Below, piece after piece: positions 9,801 through 61,700 of a DNA stretch of 64,000 bases. The translations under genes were made by a program, and so were the position numbers. The stretch is from Ascidiella aspersa (taxonomy: Eukaryota). The stretch's first letter is position 1. The number at the start of each line of letters is the position of its first letter. The DNA is taken from the NCBI GenBank assembly GCA_963924565.1, contig OZ004610.1:12710001-12774000 (forward strand). Direction: 5' to 3'. The notes under the pieces were generated by a model. That model was not told the origin of the DNA. It did not search any database and saw only the letters and a list, made by a program, of their open reading frames with translations.

Positions 9801-12800
9801 TACCAGTCCTGGTGGCCCTCACCCAAAGGACCGTCGATATACAGCTGTAACAAAGCAGGTTTGGGCTACTACAGTTCGTATTCCAAATCACTAAAACAGC
9901 AATTCAGTAGCAGCATACCTTTGGATAGCGATTACAATCTAATGTTTTTTGTCTGCACAATTTTCTAAGTTTTCTTGTCCAAGGGCCAGCTTCTTTTATG
10001 TGAAGCTCTATCGTTGATTCGTTTGGAGACGACGATATTGTAAACGGGTGATATTCGTGTGGAACGATCTCTGGACATGCTAGCAATAGCTGCAAAAAGG
10101 AAAGTCGTTAATATTAGTAAATGTTGACAGATTTTTGAAGTTATCTATTATCCTAAATGTCAAAAACTTTATCCCTCCAAATGTTCTTTCCTAATAGAAA
10201 CAGGAAATACTAATCAGGTTTGTTTCCTAATTTAGTTTTAATTAGATAAAGTGTTGTAAGGTCAAAGTAAGTACTACTAAATTTGGTGTAGGTCAAAGTG
10301 GACCAAACGTAAGCCCGCGAATCGCATGTGGCCCTTGACTTTTTGCCGTTTGGGCAAATCTGTTACGTATTTGGAATCTGACTATTGTATCGTAAATAAC
10401 ACATTTACCAGTTTTTAACAAGAAAACAACGGGCCCTAATAATTTGTTTCCAAAGTAATCTGATAAAAGTCATAAATCGAGCAATGTACTAATTTTCTTT
10501 TTTAAGTCTCTTTATACTGCCTATAAAAGATTACCTATATAAACAAAATACTTATTGTTTTCGCGCTTCACGCGATTTTGTTGCCAATTTGCATACGAGT
10601 TCGCTGGAGAAAAAAAGTTTTTAGAATTAGTAGTTTAATGACGTTACATCAATGACGTTACATCACGAACTAAATTAAATGAACTGGCCACGTAAATTCA
10701 GCGTCTATTGTAAGTGACCCGGGAAAAACACGCCAGTATTATTGCCCCAGGACCTGTCAATATTGTGACCCCAGGTGCTGACTGGAATAAGAAATAAAAC
10801 ACAAAATTAACAACGAGAAAATTTCCATTTCGTATTGAGTGCACTGCAAAAATAAAAAACACTGTCTTTTCAATTGTTCGCAAATACGGAAAAGTATAAA
10901 ATAATAGACAAAACTTAATAATCAATGGAAGAAGCAATCACTTTCGGGTTGATCCAAGTAAGCTAATCATACCCATTGTCCAGCTAAATAGTGGAAATTC
11001 TGAGGCCGCCTAATTGTCAGATGGAGGACTTCAGAAGGCAAGAGTTTTGCACATTCAATTTGATATTCGGTCCTGCGGCGGCTTAAGCTGTATATCTTGT
11101 CAAGAGTATACAGTATGGCTGGACCAAGAAAGTAGAGATAAAAGCCAGGTTCCTAAACAAAAAACGATGGTTTACGTTTATGCTTTTCATTGTCTGTTTT
11201 AATTAGTAGTGTGCCTAGATGGGAATACTAATATTGTACACCGAAAAGCCATCGCAGCCTCGCCGAATCTGTCGATCTATGATGCAAGCAGAGCAAGCCA
11301 GAAAAACAACTGGCCTGCAGTGAGGTTCGAACTCACGACCTCCGGTCAAGCCGGGACCGTCGACTCGCTCCTCTCTGAGTCGACTCGCTCCTCTCTGAGC
11401 CTGCATAGCTCAGTTGGTAGAGCGACGGTCCCGGCATGACCGGAGGTCGTGAGTTCGAACATCACTGCAGGCCAGTTGTTTTTCTGGCTTGCTCTGCTTG
11501 CATCATAGATCGACAGATTCGGCGAGTCTGCGATGGCTTTTCGGTGTACTATTGATACGGAAGCCGTAATCGTTGGTCATAAAGCAACTTCCGAGGGGCT
11601 AGATCACAGGTGTTATTAAACACATATGTTTGTGTGTGTCTTTCATACTAAAATTGTAGTGATACCTCAACTAGCATACAGCCACCATGCAGTAACATGA
11701 AGATGTAAAACAGCAGAATGCCACAGACATGCGTCCAGTGAAAGATGCGGTAAACTACATGTCGAGCGTAGTCGCACGCAAACAAGTACCTGCCAGAAAA
11801 ATTACATGATAATTTGCATAAAAAAATTATTTACAGCTCTATATTTTACTTATGTTAAGCTTTACAACAAAAGCAAAGGATGTTATCTTATTCACCTACA
11901 TAATAAGAAGAACCACGCACAGAACGATCCCAGTAATACCGGTGATAGTTTGGAATCCCCAAAAGAAAAAGGTCGGCAAAAAGTTACTCGGCCACCAGAT
12001 GTCACTAAAGTAACACAGCAAGTCCATCGGGGACTGGGTGGAAATCGAAAAGAAATTAATTCCGTGGGCTACCACGTGGACCACTGCAAGCAACAAAATA
12101 GCCAAATGTTTCGTTCCGGTCGTTAAACAAAAGTGTTCCAACTTTCAAGTCCAAAAGTTAAGAAATACATATTAATTTGTAGCCACAATTTGAAAGCACT
12201 TCTTTGAACCATGTTACATTTAATTTTGTTTTATAGCGAGTGGGGTCGAATATTGAGCCTAAATTAAAATCCAAAGACAAATTGGTGCAATACTGTGTAG
12301 AGCACGCCTTATATGCAGCAGGTAAACTAAAATAACGGATTAACGACATTGGTTGGTTCTTTATTGTTTATTATTAATAATTTCATAGAACCACTTGTCC
12401 TAGGAAAGTCAGAACTAAGTTATCCTGGAATGGGTGGATGCCTATAGGGTAAAATAACTAATAAAATGGTCTATTTGTAGCCCATATCTTACCGGAGAAA
12501 AATAGTCCCATCCATGCTATGATCTTGTGCATAGTGATAGCGGCGTCGAAAGGCACGTAATGCCGAACGAAAGTCTCCCGCAGGAAGGTTATCGTGTTCC
12601 AGCAGACGGTTAGCAGCAGAGTGGAGAAATTGAACATGAGAGCTCCCGCCGATGCTTTGGCGATTGGCAGCGGATATCCGGCCATGTGTAGTAGCCCGGT
12701 GGTTAAGTTCGATGATACCGCACCTGGATAAAACGAAAACAGCTGTTTTGAACAGGGAGTCGAACCGTTTGACTTTTTCGGTTCAGGTTGGGTTCGGGTT

Positions 12801-48980: not shown

Positions 48981-51266
48981 GGCTAAATCGATGCCGATGC
49001 GTGACACCCTGTCATGGATGTGGTGTCACCCTGTCACTCATTTTTTTTTTAATCTGGAAAAGGTTTGCTATGGTCAAAGCGCACTTTTATTAGGTTAAAA
49101 ACATTTTTAATTGTGGATTTTCATAACTGATAAATTATACTGTTCAAATTAATACTTTTTGATTGTACAAGATTTTCAGCCCGATAATAGGTACCTAGCC
49201 TTCTTCTAAACCAGCGGCTGGAAACTTAACAACATAACTCATAAATTGTATAATTTTTTTTCCATTAACAGCATTAAAATCCTATTAAATGTATACCCGG
49301 TAGTGATAAGCGTTACAGACTAATTTTTGTTTGATTTATAAAAAAAGTAATTATTAAAAGCACTCTGTATGTTATTTGAATTGCCTGTTATGATATGGTT
49401 AAGTTTATTAGTAATTTGGAACACTTTAATTTTAAGCAGTTGTTATTTGTACCAAAATGATTGCTGCTTGTCACACATTACTGCCCCTAAATACACAGGA
49501 CATTAGACATGCCTTAAAAGTTTTATCAAACAGTGTTTATAACTGTTTTGCAAAATGACAATAATTCACTCGCAGAACACACCAAAAAAAACTATTCTTC
49601 TTCCTGGATTTCTATTCTTCCTGGATTCTTTCAGTTGACATTCAACACATCGTTTTATTATATTTTATTACAAAGCAAGGGATGCCAAAAAAGGTTGACA
49701 GTCGCACAACGAAATAAATACGGACTAGTTTTGGCCACACCTTGAGTTTTTTACTGCTACACACACGTAATTTTCACAGCAGACAGACACGACTAAACGC
49801 ATTTTTAGCGAGATAGTGCGTGCACTACTTTTTGCCGTGACTAAAGATACTTTTTGATAGAAACCACCATTTTTTTACGGGTTTTGGTAGGTTTTATGTT
49901 CGGAATGTTATTTTACAAGGTTTAGCAAGTATTTTTTTAAAATTATCATGAAAATATATTCCTGGAACGCTTGAAAAGCCTTTTAATTCGAATCTTTCTT
50001 TTCTATGTCTGATTTTACCAGCTTGACTAGTTTAAAAAAACAATTTTTATGACATCCTTGCGTAATTTTGAAACTTATCTTCATGTTTCAATAAAGTGCA
50101 AAAAGTGTATGAAAATAACCCTATTTATACCTTTTTTCACAAATAGGGTGTACCCGCACTTGTGTTGCCGTATGAACGGCTTGTTAAGTTTCCAAATACA
50201 TATTTCTGCCAAAACTTCCATTTAATTTGCCTCCGCCATGATCATGACTGAATTATATCGCCTAGCTTTGTCGAGTTTAAGTTTCGCGCGCTTTGTCGGT
50301 GGGGATTAGACAGAGTCACTTTCATACACGACGCGACAAGTCAACAGTCAGACGTGTTTCGTCGCGTCGTGTCTGAATATTGAATATGTCTTCATACTGA
50401 TGCAAATATTTCACAAACAATATTCTACTAAATGAAGGACTTATTCAACTTTTACTGTAACCAAATATGTTTTAGGGCGTGTACTGTGTAAAACAGACAA
50501 AGTTTACGAATTAGCCATACTGCTGTCAATATGATTTAATTGCTTATTCACCTTTTGTATGTTGGCATACCTTATAAGAATAAACTAGAAAACTATTAGG
50601 TTGGTTGTGTTAATTAACTGAGGGGCAAAATGGGCCAACACTGCGCTGCATATAGATAATAAACTTAAAACAGTATTTAATTTTACAGATTGCCAACGAT
50701 ATCAGCTTTCAATTGACGAGGGTTTCATCGACTTCTTCCTTGGCAAGATTCTTTAAAGCCTTCAAGTTTTATAGATTCCTCCATTTCACATAATGCATCA
50801 GTTTTAAGCCATTTTTTTCATGTTGTTACACACTGCTAGAATACAAAACTTCAAATTTATAAAATAAATAGAGCCTTTCCTTTTTTGAGTAATTCTTCTA
50901 TGCCAGGCTTCCAGAAACTGCAATTAATATGTAATACCTGCATTCACGAATCGGTGACAGGGTGTCACGGAATCAGTGACAGGGTGTCACGGAATCAATG
51001 ACAGGGTGTCACAGAATCAGTGACAGGGTGTCACGGAATGGGTGACAAGGTGTCACGGAATCGGTGACAGGGTGTCACCAAATCGATGACACCTGTCACT
51101 AAATCGGTGACAGGGTGTCACGGAATCGGTGACATGGTGTCACCAAATCGATGACACCTGTCACTAAATCGGTGACAGGGTGTCACGAAATTGGTGACAG
51201 GTGTCATGGGTTTGGTGACACAGACAGGGTGTCAATAAAAAGTCACGACCCCTGTTGCATTTAACC
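48981..51266. mobile_element. Probable non-autonomous DNA transposon (~2.3 kb) with inverted GTGACACCCTGTCA subterminal repeats
   Basis: Left end GGCTAAAT..CGTGACACCCTGTCA (2 copies at 49000-49037); right end with an array of TGACAGGGTGTCAC and ..GTCACG..ATTTAACC; no intact ORF. Confidence 0.55.
50944..51235. repeat. Minisatellite, ~13 units of ~22 bp (CACGGAATCGGTGACAGGGTGT)
   Basis: Directly visible tandem array, including a duplicated higher-order block; each unit contains the hairpin GTGAC-AGGGT-GTCAC. Confidence 0.92.
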
Positions 51267-52345: not shown

Positions 52346-54375
52346 TCAATGTCGAACGACGTTCCTCTCGCGACTGTTGGTGGCGTGAAAATAACGCGAG
52401 CTGGTCCCGAAGGTGTCGCCAAAGCGGAACTTGTGCCCGGGCAGGTAGCCGGTGTAATGGGGGAGGAGACCACCATTTACGTAAATGCGCTGCTTCTCAC
52501 TTCCCGGCGCACGCCGAATTGAAGCGCTCGTACTGGGATTTAGTACAGGTTGGTTGTCGAGCAACTTTAGGTGCTGCTGGCGCTTCGTGAAGTCCACCAA
52601 TGCCTCGCGAGTCAGGTTGGGATAGTCCATTGCAAACCTGTCCATATAATATTTTTTTTTTATATATTGATAAGATTTTACAACTGGCGCGATTTCTCGG
52701 CCGTTCGACAAGAAAGTAACTTTCTCTCGGTGGGATAAACGGACTTCGTCTCAACTAAAAACTAACAAAAACGTAACGAATAGCAAGCAAATTGTTTAAC
52801 GTGCAAAAATTTGGATAAGTAAAGCAATATTATTACAAAATAATTAAAAAGGAAAGTTAATTTCAACCCAAATTATTTTGACACAATAACTCAAGTAGCT
52901 ACAAGATAGCCAATTCTTGTCATAAAACACGTAAGTCAAGTCATGTTTACCAAAAATACTTCAGTCAAGTTATTTAAAAACAGTGACTTAAGTCAAGGCA
53001 TTTTTAATGACTTGGTATTAAGTAATTACAACAATGGTGTGCGCTTTCCTGGTCTTATAGGACTAACAGAACAATTTTGACGGCAAAAAAACGATTTCAA
53101 TAAATTAAAAGCGAATTAAAAAAAACAGGAGGGACCTGCTAAGCTAGTAGGTCTCAACCATCCTGAATGCGTAACCCTGACTTCGAAAATATATATAAAA
53201 AAAGCTTCTCGCGTACTAATAACGTTCGTGTTACGTGTAGCACAAGTTATAAACCGCTGTACTGATCAATTAATTTTGTGACATCACAATTCTTGTTTGT
53301 TTCAATGCCCTTTAGATTTAGAACTTAAATTCACGCAGACGTTTTTTATTGTTAGCAATCACCTATTATGGGAGTTACAGTCACCAAACCGGAAAATAAG
53401 AAGTAGTTTAAACTTTGGTGCATCTTACTTTCTAAAATTCAGTCGAAATATGAACCCGTTTTCTTTGAAACTTTGTGCTATGCACTGTTTTGCATTACCC
53501 ATTCAAAAAGCACCAAACGCAACGCTAGAAAATTTGGTTACCTATAATAACTATGTCGTATCTGGACTGTTTCAGTAGCAAGAAACCTAAACTTACTAAA
53601 AACGAAACAATGTGTTACTCGTCTGTGGTAAAATTTTGCATTAGTCAACGAGTTTGACCTTAGCAACGGCCGGTAACATAAAAAATAAGGTGCTCGAATA
53701 AAATAAACAAAATGCAATAACATTTGTTGCTGCTTGTGCATCTTGTCTAGTCTAGGCATCAGTAAACTTTATGAAAACGATTAATCGTAAAAGTACATAC
53801 CTTCCTCTAGCTCTGGGGATAAAACCAGTGTACCCAGACATGAAGGTTTTGTCCGGGTCGTGCACGTTCATAAAGTACGGACTGACTGAGTGCTGGGCCT
53901 GGTTGAGGGAGACGTACGGTTTTGGCTCCAACCGAATCGCCCTTTGTGGCGGAGCCGGCGTCAACCGCTTACGCTCTTTGTGAATGTTTTGATCGTTCGC
54001 AAAATCAGTGATTGCGTTTTGACAGTTTTCGGCGTACCTCGTGCCGAAATGGTTCTCCTGCTTAGGAATGTAGCCGGTGTAGCCGGGCACCATTCGGTCG
54101 TTCAGTTTCTTGTCGCCCCAGCTCTGCTTACGTATTCGCTTCCACTCGTTCCTGTCCGGTCCCTTAACTAGGCTGTCATCTTCCTTCGGAAACATGTCCG
54201 CCAACACCAGCCTCCCAGACTTGGCCACAGAAGGATCTGTGAGCAGTCGTGATGTGGTCATGCCATAAGTGTCGCCGAACTGAAAGGGAAACTGCGGGCT
54301 GTAGCCGCAGTAGCCCGGTGGATAGTAGGGCTCATTGCAGAACGTCGTTCTTTTTTGGTGGACCTTTAAAGCCAT
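52346..54375 (-). CDS. FAM166/CIMIP2-family ciliary microtubule inner protein
   Basis: Two exons (54375-53801, 52637-52346) joined in phase (RG R|FAMDYP). Repeated PGYxG(Y/F)xP motifs: PPGYCGYSPQF..FGDTYG, VPGYTGYIPK..FGTRYA, SGYTGFIPR, LPHYTGYLPGHKFRFGDTFG. Confidence 0.85.
52800..53036. mobile_element. Partial third copy of the AAGTC MITE
   Basis: Shares TTTCAACCCAAATTATTT, AAACAGTGACTTAAGT and the right end TTACAACAATG with 20866-21315. Confidence 0.6.
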
Positions 54376-56039
54376 TTTCAGGTTCGCAACGTATGCATCT
54401 AACTTTTTAGAGATTTTCCTTTCTAAATTAATACCTTGCCTGAGACAATTGTAATGTCACAATGACAGGAACAAACTATAATTATCTGATTATATTTTCG
54501 GTATCTGACGTTTGTAACGTGTTACTGCTGTTTTCACTAACAAATCTTCAGGCTAAAATACAAACTTGAGCCAAATTGAACTTTTAATCGCAAAATAGAA
54601 AAAATCATAGGTTGTAATCCTTGATCTAAATTAAAATTTACTTACTACCCAAACCTAAGAGAAATTGTGCAAAAAACACAAAGGGAACTATTAAAAGTAA
54701 ACCCAATACATCTAAAATAAATTAAAACATATTTACTATAAACCATCGACTTACTAATATAAACCACTGAAATAATTGTATAGAAGTCAATGTCTTCAAA
54801 TAATTTGACTCGTTTTATTTTGGGAACTACTTAACTAAACTTATGTGTAAAAAAGACCAAGCGTTTTTTAGTTTGATTGCATTATATTTAATTGCCCAGC
54901 TTATTAACGTATACACCAATTTTCATGTAGGCCTAATGGTGTTTAACGTAAAAAGGAAAATAATAAAATTTTGCTGCGTTACCGTTTAGTGTTGCACTGG
55001 CGATGAAAGGTATTCACAATTTTTTATAGTATGTTCTACGAATCTAGGGTGAAGCAACGTCACGCAAAGCTCTCGCGATACACCAAACAATAGTTCAAGA
55101 ACAAAACAGTTCTATAGGCCAAAAACGTTGAGCAGGCCAGTTATCATGAAGCTTCTATATTAAAGGTTTAGTGTAAACCGCACGGCAATATTTAATTTAT
55201 GATTGTAAACACAGCTAATTGGCATTAGTTTGCATTGAGTGAGTACCAAAACGGGTCATAAGTTTACCCTAGTTCAAGGATGTCGAACCTTTTTATTGTT
55301 TGGGCCACTAACCAGACCCTAATCCATGAAACAGACACAAGGAGGTCATACACAGAGGCGGATCCACGATTTTTGCTTGGTAAGTCACGAAACCTTCTTG
55401 AATGTATTTAGACTTGATTTTATTTGTACACTTGCGCACGAGTTTGATTGAGCAGCAAGCTTCTTAAGGTTGTTTGTATTATACGACATCACGTTATATA
55501 ACGTAATTTGTCTGGTAATCTTTCTTGTTTAACAATTTCACTAAAGGCTTTGATTGATTTACACAACAGCTATATGCGTTGTTAATTATGTACAATTAAA
55601 CAATAGACATATCATATTAGCACGAAGCGACCATTGCAGTTTTGCGAGAATTTGGGTCCACACGTGACACGTCTAGCCTAAATCAGTGGCTCTGTTTGCT
55701 GGCTCTAACGGGAGATATTTTAAGGCATGCACAATGCGCCTCCTAAGGTGGACCACAAGAGGTCCACATGGAGTGTTTTTGAGTAATATAGTTAACACCA
55801 GTAATTCAAGACACACAAAAAGTAAAAAAAATTGGTTCTCCAGTGTATAAAAAATGTAAATTATGTCAGGTCAAATAAAAATTGGTAAACATAAAAAATC
55901 GTTACTTCGAAGGTATGGATGTTAATCAGAAAAAAATATGGCGTGTATAAGATTATAAACGGAAAATACCGTAATAAACCGCTTGAAAGCAAATTCTACA
56001 CGGCGGCATTTCTGCAAACACAATTATCTTTGTCGTTCA

Positions 56040-58290
56040 GTCAGCTTAGAACACCAGCTCACCCACGGCAGCTCGCATTCTCGATTTTACGCCAAGCGGG
56101 GCGTAAACTATTCAGTCGCAACCCAGAGCGGGATTTGGCGCTGATCAGCAGCCTCCGACGTTTACCTGTTCGGCAGCATCAATAACAGGCTCGCGAAACG
56201 CCAACGTAGCAACTTTACTGCGCTCAACTGCCCGCGATCCAGCCCCTTGCTGTCACGGCTGCGTAAGCGTGACCTTGCTTACCCGGCGAATCTTGCCCCC
56301 TCTTTTTCCAAAGGACGGGCGGACCTGGGTTTCGGCAGGCCCCGATAAGCGTCGGCCATTTGCAGGTGAGAAGCCGACGCGATAGGATGGTGGAACGTTC
56401 AGGGCCGCAGTGCGCGTCTCCGCTGCTGATGGGTGAGTGAGTTCGTATCTTTTAGAAAATCGATTCTTGATTTTATAAGATTTTTATACAACAATAGTTT
56501 ACTATTGTGGATTAAATTTGTATATATATCACGGAATGTCGCTGCTGCTTAGTTTTAAACAAGATTTACGTTTATTTGGAACGGACTGTGGTTTGATATT
56601 CGGTGGAAGCCTATGTCGTATTGCATCTGTCTCAGGAAACTCAAGTATATATATATATAAAAAAAAAAATACGTATACTAAAAAAATAGTCGAATGGTTT
56701 AAAAGTTACGAATAACACTTATTTGATTTACAAGACCATATTTAAAAAATTAATGCAGAGAAGGATAAGCCAGCCCTTTTTTATTTTGTAAGGTTTTTTT
56801 ATGTATTTTTTTATGAGAATTATATAGGCCTACAAACAACACAAATTATGCACAAATATTGTTTTAATGCAATTTTGCATTTTTTATGCTGTTTGTTTTT
56901 TATTAGATTAAAAAATGACTGATTTATTGATTCCGTATTATATAATTAAGCGACGTTTTTAACGCAAATTATGTCGTAGATAAGATCAATCAACGAATGA
57001 CAATATGCGATAACCTATAGTAGCGTGTAATTTTACGTTTATAAGCCCATACACTGCAGATGCGGAGAAATTGCGAAATCCGTATAGCTCAGCTACGTCG
57101 GCGTTTCGGTATGTAGGCTGAGGCCGTAGATGCTTAACACGTCTGCGCATTCGAGCGGTGAGGCGTAACGTCTAACAGGTAGGCACTGGCAACAGAGCAC
57201 CAGGCATCTCATCTGAGAAAAAGCCCAAAACAGAAATCTCCTATAATTTGCTGTTTCGAAAGAGGCCGTTTTTCGTACGTATTTGCCGATGTCGGTCTTT
57301 CGGCAACAGCCCAATCCAGTCGAACCCATCCATGCACGGCAGTCGAGTCGTCTGCTCTCAAATCGACTGTCTCCTTTTAAGTATAGGCGATACCTAGTCG
57401 GCTGTGTTGGCAATACTTGGTTGCCAGTCAAGCGTTACCCGGCCAGGTAAGATGGATTGCCTGGAAAGAATCCGACACAGAGCCTTAAAAATGCGTTGAA
57501 CTGGGTGGTTGAAGTCTGTCCAGCACTAACCACAGGGATGCTGTCTTTGTGGACTCGTTTGTGCAAACATCCACTGACATAAAGCAAGACCAAGATTTGT
57601 ACTTTAGAAAGAAAATAATTAAGCTCTTTGATGTAAAATGATCTTTAAAAGGACGAAATCGTACCCTTTTTTTAAAGTACGGTCGATTTTGACATGATGA
57701 AATCGGTTAAAATACCTATAGTTAGTCGTTTCTCGCAATTTGCGTGCTTAGCGATCCCACTTTATTGTGCACGCCAAGCACTCGAACGCCCGGTAATATT
57801 ACACCCTCGTCTTGGCGCCGTTTAGCCCCACCGCCTGAGAAACTATACATAGTTCCGTTTCGCTACGTTCCACTAATTTGCTGCTCGAGTTTTCTGCTAT
57901 CCCATGACTGCGTCCTACCCCCTTGCCTAAGCGTGACTATACAAACTTTTTGGAATGCCAACGCACACCACCCTGGGGACCATTCTGGGTGAATTTGTGT
58001 GGATCGGTTCATTTAGACAACGCCCGATCTGTTCAGTGAACTTACGATAAATCTGTTCCTAAAAACGCAAGTTTTACCCAAAATGCCTGAATTAAAGCTT
58101 TACTGCCTTAAATGTATGTACTGACCCATGTTGAAAGTATCAGATCGGTCAAAGCTTTTGTAACTGCCGAGTATGAAAATCTTCTGATTTGCTTGCCGGA
58201 CAATAGCGTGCTGCTTGGCGCTTGCATTAGTAGTACGTCGTTCTCCGGACGGTTGACTGGAGAACTATCGACATCTTAACGAATTCGGCA
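56040..58290 (+). ncRNA. Candidate highly structured non-coding RNA locus of unknown family (three GC-rich blocks, possibly spliced)
   Basis: GC-rich blocks 56040-56450, 57060-57600, 57740-58290 with no recognisable protein. 16-bp long-range helix 56057-56072/56422-56438 and many hairpins, with G.U pairs on the + strand. Possible intron GTGAGT(56433)..CTGCAG(57059). Confidence 0.5.
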
Positions 58291-58790
58291 AGTTTGATAA
58301 AATGTGAGGTTTACTTATTTTTTGCGATATTAAAGCTTCCTTTTCTGATTTATCAATTACAAATCTTTTTATCTACAAACAAAGATACATCCATTTTGTT
58401 TCCTTTGAGAAACAATATTTAGTCAAAACTGCTGTATGGGTCTTGACATGCATAGTACGTCTAACTAACATCTCCAACAATTATGCATTATCCAAAGATA
58501 TACCAATAATTCGTATATAATGTGCTATTGTCTGAAATCTAAATCCAAACATACACATGGGACAGCTTTTCCAAAAGGCAAACTGCATTCAGCATCTACA
58601 GAATATTCTTAGCAATTAAACTAACCTAAAAGAAAAGTTGGAACAAACATAAATATCCGCCATTTATTTTCGATATAAATAAGGCCAAACAGGACAATAG
58701 CTTAATTAGCCCTGCGTTGAATAGCAGAAACGCACATTTAGCAGATAATATAACATCGGTCGTGTCTCGGTTCTCGCCGGTCTGTGATTT

Positions 58791-61700
58791 TCACCAGTTG
58801 TTGGTTTCCATATCGTACCAGTCGAGGTACTTGGACACCCTGGTATAGACGGCCGGCGTTCCCTTGCCGCATTTCCAGCCCCACGACGTGATACCGGCCA
58901 AATACCAGGTTCCACTTTCGGTCTGGCACTGCAGAGGCCCCCCGCTGTCTCCCTGTTTAGAAAGTACAAGATTAGTTAGGTTAAATCCGGGGTAAATACA
59001 TAAAATAAGGTAAATACATATTGAAGAGCAAATTTTATGAGAAAACATGGTTTTAAATAGTTAAGCCAGTGTTCAGTGCTCTACATAAACCGCTTCAATA
59101 AGAGTAGTTTTTAACCAGTGGTATACGTGCCGGTGCCACTTGTACGCTAAAGGCGAGACGCGAAGGCGTTTCAGGTGGTACGCGAGCAGTTTAAAGGCCT
59201 TATGTATTTTGAAACATTATTTTGTAAATATACTACAAACGTATAATATCGCTCTGTCGTAAGTTATTTATTCCGTTTGACATATTAAATCGACCTAGAA
59301 TACAGCGTTACAGTTTTTTTTTCACTGAAATGAGGATTTTAAACGCTTTAAAAAAAAATTTCGAAAATTTGTTTCAAACCAGGTGGTACTTGGCTAGAAA
59401 GAGGCTAAGAACCATTGAAATAGTATCGCAAACCTTCAGGCTCGATCTAAAGCGACCTTTAAATACCTCAGAACTCGTTCGTTTTTACCTGACAAGTGTC
59501 GCCCCTGGTCGAAGTGCCGCAGATCACCGATTCGGGCATGATCGTTTCGCCAAAAAAGTTCTCGCATCTGGCGGGCGACAGGATTGTGGTGGGAGCTTGC
59601 CTGAGGACGGCTGACATGTCCGTGCCGTCTCCCTCCAATGCGTCGTCTCTGTCCTCTGCAAAGGAAACCATTTAGGAGCAATCTTTCAGGCGATAAGTGA
59701 GGTAAACAAATTGTTTTTTGAACGAAGGGTTCTGAGATGGTACCAAGACCAACAAAAAGTGTATTTATGAAGGTAACAAAGGCTACGGTACAAGGCCGAA
59801 GGTAAAAAACAATGAGTTTGATGATTTTTCCTAATGAACAAAAAGTATTGTACAGTTACCAGCCTTTCATACCCTTTTGGTAAAAGCAATGTGATTTGGA
59901 ATTACTAAATATGAATAAAAATAAGTCAATTTTAAATCAATTTTAAAAACGTTTTAAACATATATGTAAAGTCTTGTAATATATAAGTAATACAAAATCT
60001 GTTTTGCATGATATGTCAGTATCCCGATGAAGGCGTTCTGTATAAGACGTCAAAACGTCGATTGATTATATAATACTGCTGGATGAGCAACACTCGGTTA
60101 TATATTATGCCTGGCAGCATTGGCTTATTTAATACATTTTTACACTGTGATTTCTCTGATTTAAAGTCATATATAGATTGTGATAAACAATAAAGCATGT
60201 CATTTGAACTAAATCATATAAAACCTGAAAGTAATTGCACAATAATCCTTTTTAGAGATAAATAATAAAATAATCCTTTGGAGTGATTATCTTACTTGTT
60301 GCGCCCCAACCGGTGATGTAACAGGTCGTTCCGGTTGGTGGGCCTTCGTTCTGCATGGGCAAGCAGATCGGAATCACTTCATTCGTGAGGGTGGCTGGAA
60401 ACTCCAACTGAACGGTTTTAATGAAAAGTTTTTTTTTAACGCTTACTGGAATGTTAGTTTGTCACGGCAGCGTTTGTCGTTGTTTCGTTTAGATCAGAAA
60501 TTCCTAATTTACCCCTCAGAAAAACTTGGTTGATTTTATTAATTATAATTTCATTAAAATATATACCATATCGTATAATAGTCAAAGTTGTACAGTAAAA
60601 AATGTTCAAATGCACTTCAGGGATAATTACCCACGAATTAGGAACCACTGTTTTAGACCAAGATGGCACGGGTATACGATTTGTACACTTAGCCCAATAA
60701 ATTTGTACATATATTAATTAAAGCTATCATATCAAATTATGAGGGTCACGGAAAAAAAAGGAAAGAAAAATATGCACTGTAGTAAAAATCTTTATTGCAA
60801 AAAAGCAAGACCTCGATCAGTCCGATATCGTAAGCCGTTGACTCAGGGTCGAAAAACGGATGAGCGGAGGCTCGGTACACGGGGATCTCGACTCTGGACG
60901 ACGATTTTTTATAGATGTTGTGCTCTCCCAAAACCACCACCATACCAGAGGTGTCCCTGCGTAAAGGATAAAACAGGCTGTCAGTATAGCTATATGAATG
61001 TGTGACGTGGAAAACATATTTTGCAGTATTAGGTATTCAATGAATATCCTGTTGTTGCCAGGCATTTGGGGTTATTGAATGTATTAAATGGATATAGGTA
61101 TTGAATGGCTGCAAAACAAAAATTAATTCAAGACGTCGTTAGTTCCGCCTGCTGGGTTGAAATCAGCCTACATTATTTTAACTTGAGGGCGACGTTAACT
61201 TACTCGTCTTCTGGAAGGCAGTGAGCGGCGGTCAACACAAAAGACTCGTTGACTAGGGTTCCACCGCACTCATGCTCGCCGTAGTTCAGCAGCTGGACCT
61301 TAAATGCAACAACAATACATTTTTTGATTCTGTTATTGGGCAACCTTTTTTATTGATTGTTTTTTAACATGAGAAATGTGTATCGAGAGTGGATTGTGTT
61401 TGTCCTTATGTCGTTTTCATTCGATTGATGTTAACAGGGTATAGTCGTATGTGGTAATCGTTTACTACTCGCAGTAAATCTATGTTTTCTTTATCGTCAA
61501 ACTTCACAAGAGGTAAAGAAGGTAAGGTGTTTCTTTACCGATAGTTTACATGAAGTAAAAGCTCGACTGTAAAGTGTGTAGGGTATGCGTCAAACCATTC
61601 TTTCGTTTTTAAATGAAGCGTATAATAGCGCACACGTTTCAGTATAGTAAGCATATGGTAATATAGGAGCATCGTACCTGCCACGGCCAGGAATGGGATA

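What the first reader, a model, noticed from the sequence alone, without database searches (positions are those of the whole stretch)
57060..58290. Two more hairpin-dense GC-rich blocks, possibly exons of one spliced structured lncRNA
Seen: CTCAGC..GCTGAG (57088-57122), CGTAGATG/CGTCTGCG (57125-57147, 2 G.U), CAGTCGA/TCGACTG (about 57340-57369), TGGCAA/TTGCCA (about 57408-57426), CCACAGGGA/TCTTTGTGG (57530-57552, G.U), GTGCTT/AAGCAC (about 57744-57781), and CTTGCCG/CGGCAAG enclosing GTTCTCC/GGAGAAC (about 58192-58292). Wobble pairs again favour the + strand. The AT-rich gap to the first block has a strong donor GTGAGT (56433 or 56437) and an acceptor CTGCAG (57059). The donor lies inside the closing helix of block 1, so folding could compete with splicing. 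The protease gene has its own polyA signal near 58665, so this is probably not its 3' UTR. Inference: a ~1.6-kb multi-domain architectural RNA between two genes of cilia/sperm-associated families.
Basis: partly seen in the sequence, partly recalled or inferred. Interest (0 to 1): 0.7.

Follow-up and report, generated by a model that had tools for sequence, protein, structure and literature searches.

The report
Candidate spliced sea-squirt non-coding RNA
Single-copy, GC-rich, non-coding blocks between a cilia gene and a protease gene in a sea squirt look like exons of a possibly folded long non-coding RNA, but the one RNA sample tested had no reads there, so the RNA is only predicted.

Summary
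All eight listed stems and the splice motifs are present as stated. Short stems are about twice the shuffle count (20 vs 9.2; G·U stems favour +). Folding energy is ordinary except for one 3' domain (58191-58293, z -4.2); true RNase P, MRP and 7SK of this genome are equally ordinary, so folding cannot decide. The blocks gave no second copy, and no codon periodicity in the finding itself. New links to block 1: a 16/17 complementarity (56194-56210 with 57092-57108) and a 7-bp helix across the proposed junction (P about 0.01-0.02). Against: no reads on the blocks in one stranded RNA-seq run where the neighbour CIMIP2B reaches 178x; SNPs keep 4 and break 4 predicted pairs; the minus strand offers comparable splice sites. 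Telomerase RNA, RNase P/MRP, 7SK, snoRNA, rDNA and ribozymes fail their tests. No homologue was reachable, and the scan had not noted this DNA elsewhere. Verdict: a plausible but unproven spliced + strand lncRNA (about 40%); regulatory DNA or a relic is nearly as likely.

The parts
53752..54397 (-). First coding exon of CIMIP2B/FAM166B (ciliary microtubule inner protein), head-to-head with the blocks; many reads end at 54397
   Evidence: PF10629 E 1.4e-18; 70-71% identical to Ciona proteins; depth up to 178x, 11 of 31 molecules end at 54397
55954..55959 (+). TATAAA about 85 nt before block 1; possible promoter element (inferred, weak in AT-rich DNA)
   Evidence: sequence; no snRNA-type PSE before either block
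56041..56432 (+). Block 1, predicted non-coding exon (outside the given coordinates): GC 0.59, acceptor at 56040, closing helix about 56055-56069 with 56424-56439
   Evidence: highest GC of 26 unexplained GC-rich segments in 484 kb
56194..56210 (+). 5' arm of the 16/17 long-range complementarity with 57092-57108 (A.C mismatch on +, G.U on -)
   Evidence: I12; inverted local alignment score 29, 1 of 200 shuffles as high, one of six comparisons; duplex -26.2 on +, -30.1 kcal/mol on -
56417..56423 (+). 5' arm of a 7-bp helix with 57062-57068 that becomes a local hairpin only if the gap is spliced out
   Evidence: P 0.008-0.023 against GC-matched window pieces
56433..57059 (+). AT-rich gap (GC 0.28), predicted GT-AG intron; alternative donor at 56437
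   Evidence: no junction read
57060..57600 (+). Block 2: GC 0.49, stem-rich on +; holds the 3' arms 57062-57068 and 57092-57108 and an internal strong donor motif at 57447
57599..57720 (.). AT-rich spacer with a 14-bp inverted repeat (57599-57612 / 57667-57680); 57622-57751 has no listed contig piece in run X2
57720..58090 (.). Block 3: GC 0.48, no stem excess, folds better on -
58191..58293 (+). Terminal multi-way junction domain, the only fold of the finding clearly better than chance on +
   Evidence: z -4.24 on +, -2.30 on -; controls give 3 such folds in 20.5 kb of strand
58329..58334 (+). ATTAAA, possible polyadenylation signal of the predicted RNA (motif is common)
58663..58933 (-). Last exon and AATAAA of a trypsin-family protease gene, convergent with the blocks; no reads in X9
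   Evidence: PF00089 E 5e-14

Best explanation
The single-copy, non-coding blocks are likely exons of a spliced, + strand long non-coding RNA of about 1.6-1.7 kb, predicted to be made by RNA polymerase II in a stage or tissue not sampled. It would start near 55985-56041, diverging from the CIMIP2B promoter region, lose the AT-rich gap 56433-57059 as an intron and end near 58350. In the precursor the closing helix of block 1 would hide the donor and 57088-57122 would fold locally; after splicing a junction hairpin and the 16-bp helix 56194-56210/57092-57108 could replace them. Shown: sequence, no second copy found, non-coding character, stem excess, complementarities. Inferred: transcription, strand, splicing, refolding and any function (most likely cis-regulation of, or co-expression with, the neighbouring ciliary gene).
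For: No second copy in G000 and X2 depth like the flanks. No codon periodicity in blocks 2-3 (p 0.31-0.92; block 1 p 0.095, its 5' half 0.047; 5 of 6 known exon stretches p < 0.02), no Pfam hit in 13 ORFs, longest ATG frame of the joined model 55 codons, a 1-nt insertion allele in block 1. GC edges carry + strand splice motifs: acceptor 56040 (P 0.07), donor 56433 (P 0.12), best acceptor at the block-2 edge (57087, P 0.12) under a small matrix from 9 donors and 15 acceptors. Stem excess with + bias. Junction helix P 0.008-0.023; 16/17 complementarity P about 0.01, about 0.06 after six comparisons; the two nest in the joined fold with pair probabilities 0.85-0.97. GC 0.49-0.59 resembles this genome's RNase P, MRP and 7SK (0.52-0.57).
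Against: No reads in 55881-56735 or 57078-58274 and no joint in X9 (7.8 million records, about 6 in 100 of the run), while CIMIP2B reaches 178x. Joining the blocks gains only -12.7 kcal/mol vs -9.2 +/- 4.6 for shuffled partners (12 of 60 as good) and 13 of 50 real control pieces as good; the junction hairpin's energy gain is ordinary (P 0.61). Stable-fold density equals controls. Of 12 substitutions in X2 within the blocks, 4 keep a predicted pair, 4 break one (one in the middle of an 8-bp helix, 56376) and 4 are unpaired or in low-probability helices (my reading on the folds). The 17-bp helix is perfect on - and mismatched on +. Unexplained GC-rich segments are common (26 of 69 in 484 kb). 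The region was picked for its hairpins, so the P values are optimistic.
Confidence: 0.4

Rival explanations
1. The blocks are untranscribed regulatory DNA (enhancer or promoter modules for CIMIP2B, the protease gene or a more distant gene); their GC is kept by selection on binding sites and most hairpins are by-products.
For: No reads; 1.6-3.9 kb upstream of a strongly expressed ciliary gene; folding energy like other GC-rich non-coding segments; such segments occur about once per 19 kb.
Against: No full X-box and no excess of half sites or Fox sites; sharp GC edge at the donor (0.68 to 0.17 within about 60 nt); cross-block complementarity is not expected.
Confidence: 0.24
2. The blocks are an old, now single-copy relic of a mobile element or other foreign GC-rich DNA, split by an AT-rich insertion; the cross-block pairings are remnants of its original continuous fold.
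For: Non-coding, sharp edges, no reads; complementarities across the gap fit any once-continuous element.
Against: No second copy at E <= 10 (a search that can miss diverged copies); no phage or plasmid match beyond chance; no hammerhead or HDV-like core; no target-site duplication seen by eye; GC is higher than decayed DNA would suggest (inference).
Confidence: 0.17
3. The blocks belong to a minus-strand transcript: alternative non-coding 5' exons or an outron of CIMIP2B, or a long read-through 3' end of the protease gene.
For: Minus-strand donors at 56282, 56165, 57715 and acceptors at 57602, 57213; the 17-bp helix is perfect on -; block 3 folds better on -.
Against: No minus-strand reads upstream of the CIMIP2B exon although that gene is at 178x; the protease has its own AATAAA; the 8 hits of minus-strand ORF 56256-56447 are weak matches summed over unrelated repeat proteins.
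Confidence: 0.15
4. It is the missing tunicate telomerase RNA in a strongly changed form.
For: Tunicate telomerase RNA was not found in a genome survey (PMC8704543, passages); single copy, GC-rich, no snRNA promoter; a low-abundance RNA could be missed in X9; the 3' domain is a multi-way junction.
Against: Telomeres are TTAGGG and the blocks hold no 7-nt or longer template on either strand; the nearest 7-nt match (55316) lies outside, in a stretch with repeat-like depth; no Rfam telomerase hit at E <= 10.
Confidence: 0.04

Closest known systems
Spliced long intergenic non-coding RNAs transcribed divergently from a protein-coding gene (general class; recalled, no call defines it)
   Same: Single copy, non-coding, intergenic, GC-rich exon-like blocks with GT-AG motifs, head-to-head with a coding gene
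   Different: Transcription not shown; GC and stem count higher than most non-coding segments sampled; predicted pairing between exons
Animal telomerase RNA (PMC8480181, passages read)
   Same: Single-copy, GC-rich, multi-domain; not yet found in tunicates (PMC8704543, passages read); a multi-way junction near the 3' end
   Different: No template for TTAGGG, no Rfam hit, no P6.1-like or H/ACA end recognised by eye, about three times longer than the 436-nt acorn-worm RNA named in that paper
[quoted passage not shown]
   Same: Similar GC (0.52-0.57) and equally unremarkable folding z-scores; block 1 has a similar size and a closing helix
   Different: All three are present elsewhere in G000 with a shared upstream element at about -70 that the blocks lack; no Rfam hit here
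Predicted structured RNAs from genome-wide screens in urochordates (PMC1892782, start of abstract in a search listing only)
   Same: Structured non-coding candidates without known family
   Different: Those rest on cross-species alignments; none could be made here

Membership tests
Spliced structured lincRNA | Transcribed, longer than 200 nt | tested here: inconclusive
   No reads in one library, 6 in 100 of the run; neighbouring protease also silent
Spliced structured lincRNA | No protein-coding capacity | tested here: met
Spliced structured lincRNA | Splice junction used | tested here: inconclusive
   Motifs present with modest scores; no junction read
Spliced structured lincRNA | Structure conserved by covariation | not testable with these tools
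   No homologue reachable; within-species SNPs split 4 to 4
Telomerase RNA | Template of about 1.5 telomere repeats | tested here: not met
   TTAGGG telomeres; only a 6-nt match at 57526 inside the blocks
Telomerase RNA | Pseudoknot, CR4/5 and H/ACA domains | tested here: inconclusive
   No RF00024 hit in the region, but that model is vertebrate and found no credible gene anywhere in G000
RNase P / MRP / 7SK / U snRNA | Match to the family covariance model | tested here: not met
   the real genes lie elsewhere
RNase P / MRP / 7SK / U snRNA | Proximal sequence element at about -70 | tested here: not met
   Matrix from 6 distinct sites scores 13-24 on them; no + strand site above 6.9 just before either block
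Box C/D snoRNA | C and D boxes with an antisense guide to rRNA | tested here: not met
   One C-box motif at 57694; longest rDNA complement 13 nt, reached by 9 of 50 shuffles and not beside that box
rDNA-derived fragment | Similarity to the rDNA unit | tested here: not met
   Longest exact match 11 nt, at or below shuffles
Hammerhead or HDV-like ribozyme element | Catalytic core motif | tested here: not met
   0 hits with simple descriptors written from memory; no Rfam hit
Transposable element | Other copies, terminal repeats or target-site duplication | tested here: not met
   One candidate per search; old diverged copies could be missed

The most novel reading that the evidence does not exclude
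A 1.6-kb ascidian RNA whose splicing flips it between two folds: a precursor fold that hides its own donor, and a mature fold locked by a 16-bp helix between exons. It would be a splicing-coupled structural switch in a large non-coding RNA of no known family, acting beside a ciliary gene.
Probability: 0.12. Interest if true: 0.75.

Novelty: new member of a known kind. Interest (0 to 1): 0.36.

Why it matters
Large structured non-coding RNAs outside the housekeeping set are scarce in invertebrate chordates, and several expected RNAs (telomerase RNA, U7, Y) were not found in a tunicate genome survey (PMC8704543, passages). A real, conserved, spliced 1.6-kb structured RNA here would give a tractable case of folding coupled to splicing. 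If it is regulatory DNA or a relic, it is ordinary. Six literature searches (listings only) showed no paper on a non-coding RNA at this locus; most subscription papers are not in that library.

Tried and rejected
Rfam at gathering score (whole window) and at E <= 10 (55500-58700): only two chance hits in the region. The look-up of sequencing runs: no RNA holder listed, not used as evidence. Traces in X4 and X6 are short pieces at depth 2-6, unspliced across 57059 (X4) or cut at GATC (X6), read as DNA carry-over, not as expression or a relative. Only one RNA library was laid; runs X1, X3, X5, X7, X8 and X10-X13 were not examined. Synteny: the one metagenome locus with a CIMIP2B relative (L025, 65% identical, 5.1 kb upstream) shows no match to the blocks; it is distant and repeat-rich, so this is weak. 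RF00024 over G000 gave five sub-threshold hits that are copies of a repeat. Minus-strand ORF 56256-56447 with two amidation-like motifs: 8 hits, all unrelated repeat proteins, pairwise E 1.8 for the best; ORF 57096-57434 had no hit among proteins of 62-198 residues. Phage and plasmid blastn: none, and 2 at E 0.7. Ancient inverted duplication of block 1 into block 2: rejected, because the complementarities do not lie on one diagonal. The z -3.1 of the joined domain closed by the 16-bp helix was set aside: it was chosen after the fact and the minus strand scores -3.6. A self-trained exon finder picked 56229-56425 on -, but it also picked non-coding GC-rich DNA. Supplementary files were not read.

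Full report
Setting. The window lies on contig C4 of G000 (308.6 Mb, nine contigs over 26 Mb, TTAGGG telomeres). The left neighbour is CIMIP2B/FAM166B on the minus strand (PF10629; best hits 70-71% to Ciona proteins), so the host is an ascidian. The right neighbour is a trypsin-family protease gene on the minus strand with AATAAA at 58663-58668. Between them lie block 1 (56041-56440, GC 0.59), an AT-rich gap (0.28), block 2 (57060-57600, 0.49), a short AT-rich spacer and block 3 with a terminal domain (57720-58300, 0.46).

Observation. Every listed stem and splice motif is at the stated place. In 57060-58290 there are 20 Watson-Crick stems of 6 bp or more with loops up to 40 nt, against 9.2 +/- 3.0 in 100 dinucleotide shuffles; stems of 8 bp or more with up to two G.U number 13 vs 5.3 on + and 7 vs 5.0 on -. 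The excess sits mostly in block 2. To calibrate I took 484 kb (the window, two flanks and 40 spaced 10-kb stretches) and found 69 GC-rich segments of 300 nt or more: 32 coding-like, 11 repeated, 26 unexplained, of which two are blocks 1 and 2. Of the 24 others, one exceeds block 2's stem z of 2.9 and two exceed block 1's 2.3; the top one looks like a last exon with a palindrome-rich 3' end (my reading). By energy the blocks are ordinary: z -1.48, -0.38 and -1.06, and 3.9 locally stable folds per kb against 3.2 in controls. That is not decisive, because this genome's RNase P, MRP and 7SK score -0.7, -1.8 and -0.6. Only 58191-58293 stands out (z -4.24 on +, -2.30 on -), and controls give 3 such folds in 20.5 kb of strand, so one in about 3 kb of strand is not rare.

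What it is not. The 2.4-kb region and each block returned only themselves in G000, and X2 contig depth matches the flanks. Rfam finds nothing credible. RNase P, MRP, 7SK, U2 and U6 lie elsewhere, and their shared upstream element at about -70 has no counterpart before the blocks. There is no telomerase template, no rDNA similarity or guide complement beyond chance, no hammerhead or HDV-like core, no phage or plasmid match. Codon periodicity is absent in blocks 2 and 3 (p 0.31-0.92), marginal in block 1 (p 0.095; 5' half 0.047) and clear in 5 of 6 known exon stretches. Thirteen ORFs have no Pfam hit; two searched more widely gave only artefacts or nothing.

For one spliced + strand RNA. The GC edges carry an acceptor at 56040, a donor at 56433/56437 and acceptors at 57059 and 57087; under a matrix from 9 donors and 15 acceptors of this window the best site at each of these edges has a chance of 0.07-0.12. 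Two complementarities tie block 1 to block 2. One is 16 of 17 nt between 56194-56210 and 57092-57108 (1 of 200 shuffles scored as high, in one of six comparisons). The other is 7 bp between 56417-56423 and 57062-57068, within 20 nt of each side of the proposed junction (P 0.008-0.023). In the joined model they nest, with pair probabilities 0.85-0.97. They compete with block 1's closing helix, which covers the donor, and with the local hairpin 57088-57122. Precursor and spliced RNA are therefore predicted to fold differently.

Against. Run X9 is stranded RNA-seq of the same species label; about 6 in 100 of it (7.8 million records) was laid. CIMIP2B reaches 178x, but bins 55881-56735 and 57078-58274 have no depth and no joint is listed. 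Three reads over 1.6 kb would be about 0.24 per kb per million records, several hundred times below CIMIP2B (my arithmetic). The protease exon is also empty, so real genes here can be silent in that sample; tissue and poly(A) selection are not given. The energy gained by joining is not significant (-12.7 vs -9.2 +/- 4.6; 12 of 60 shuffles and 13 of 50 real pieces as good). The long helix is stronger on the minus strand, block 3 folds better on minus, and minus-strand splice sites of similar strength exist. Of 12 substitutions in X2 inside the blocks (one table row was not shown), 56116, 57289, 58141 and 58286 keep a predicted + strand pair, 56376, 58055, 58080 and 58258 break one, and four are unpaired or in weak helices; computed energy changes show no clear pattern. 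No homologue was reachable: L025, the only CIMIP2B-bearing metagenome locus, has none in 5.1 kb, and the scan's index has no look-alike.

Weighing. The most likely single reading is a spliced, polymerase II, + strand non-coding RNA with restricted expression (0.40). Regulatory DNA (0.24), a split relic of foreign or mobile DNA (0.17), minus-strand non-coding exons (0.15) and telomerase RNA (0.04) share the rest. The step from 'non-coding exons' to 'architectural RNA' is unsupported until covariation or probing is in hand.

Literature seen. PMC8704543: passages (telomerase, U7, vault and Y RNA not found in Didemnum; P, MRP, 7SK found). PMC8480181: passages (animal telomerase RNA domains; the words Ciona, ascidian and urochordate do not occur in its main text). 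PMC13746493: keyword passages, nothing relevant. PMC1892782: listing and start of abstract only. No supplements were read.

Noticed in passing
window 11236-11553: Head-to-head inverted duplication of a tRNA-derived element (arms of roughly 120 nt) with a 20-nt tandem duplication at its centre; Rfam scores 11399-11473 as tRNA.
   Followed up: no
window 50944-51220: 22-nt minisatellite with palindromic units, 12.8 copies; gives the highest stem count of the window.
   Followed up: no
G000:C7:20.57-21.80 Mb (L031-L033): 15 of 17 7SK matches cluster in about 1.2 Mb on both strands, some with deletions; two checked copies keep an upstream element at about -70.
   Followed up: partly
G000:C5:29.50-29.60 Mb (L039-L048): U2 and U6 genes alternate head-to-head in a 1193-bp tandem unit, over 40 copies each.
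   Followed up: no
L029, L030, L032, L033, L039, L044 upstream regions: A shared proximal element sits at -70 to -73 before RNase P, MRP, 7SK, U6 and U2; RNase P and MRP share 17 of 20 letters. It could seed a genome-wide search for missing small RNAs.
   Followed up: partly
window 54397: 11 of 31 CIMIP2B molecules end at one base next to an AG on the minus strand, which would fit a trans-splice acceptor or a sharp start site.
   Followed up: no
window 56349-56380 and 57443-57464: The two best-scoring donor motifs of the region (56366, 57447) lie inside predicted hairpins; 56365/56366 is an acceptor directly followed by a donor.
   Followed up: no
window 56831-56896: AT-rich hairpin inside the gap, z -6.7 on the minus strand.
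   Followed up: no
L095 5122-5532 (G000:C9:17.005 Mb): Apparent last exon of a membrane protein ending in ERLI, followed by a stretch dense in TGACGTCA palindromes.
   Followed up: partly
L034-L038: A dispersed repeat with telomere-like hexamers gives sub-threshold hits to the vertebrate telomerase model.
   Followed up: partly
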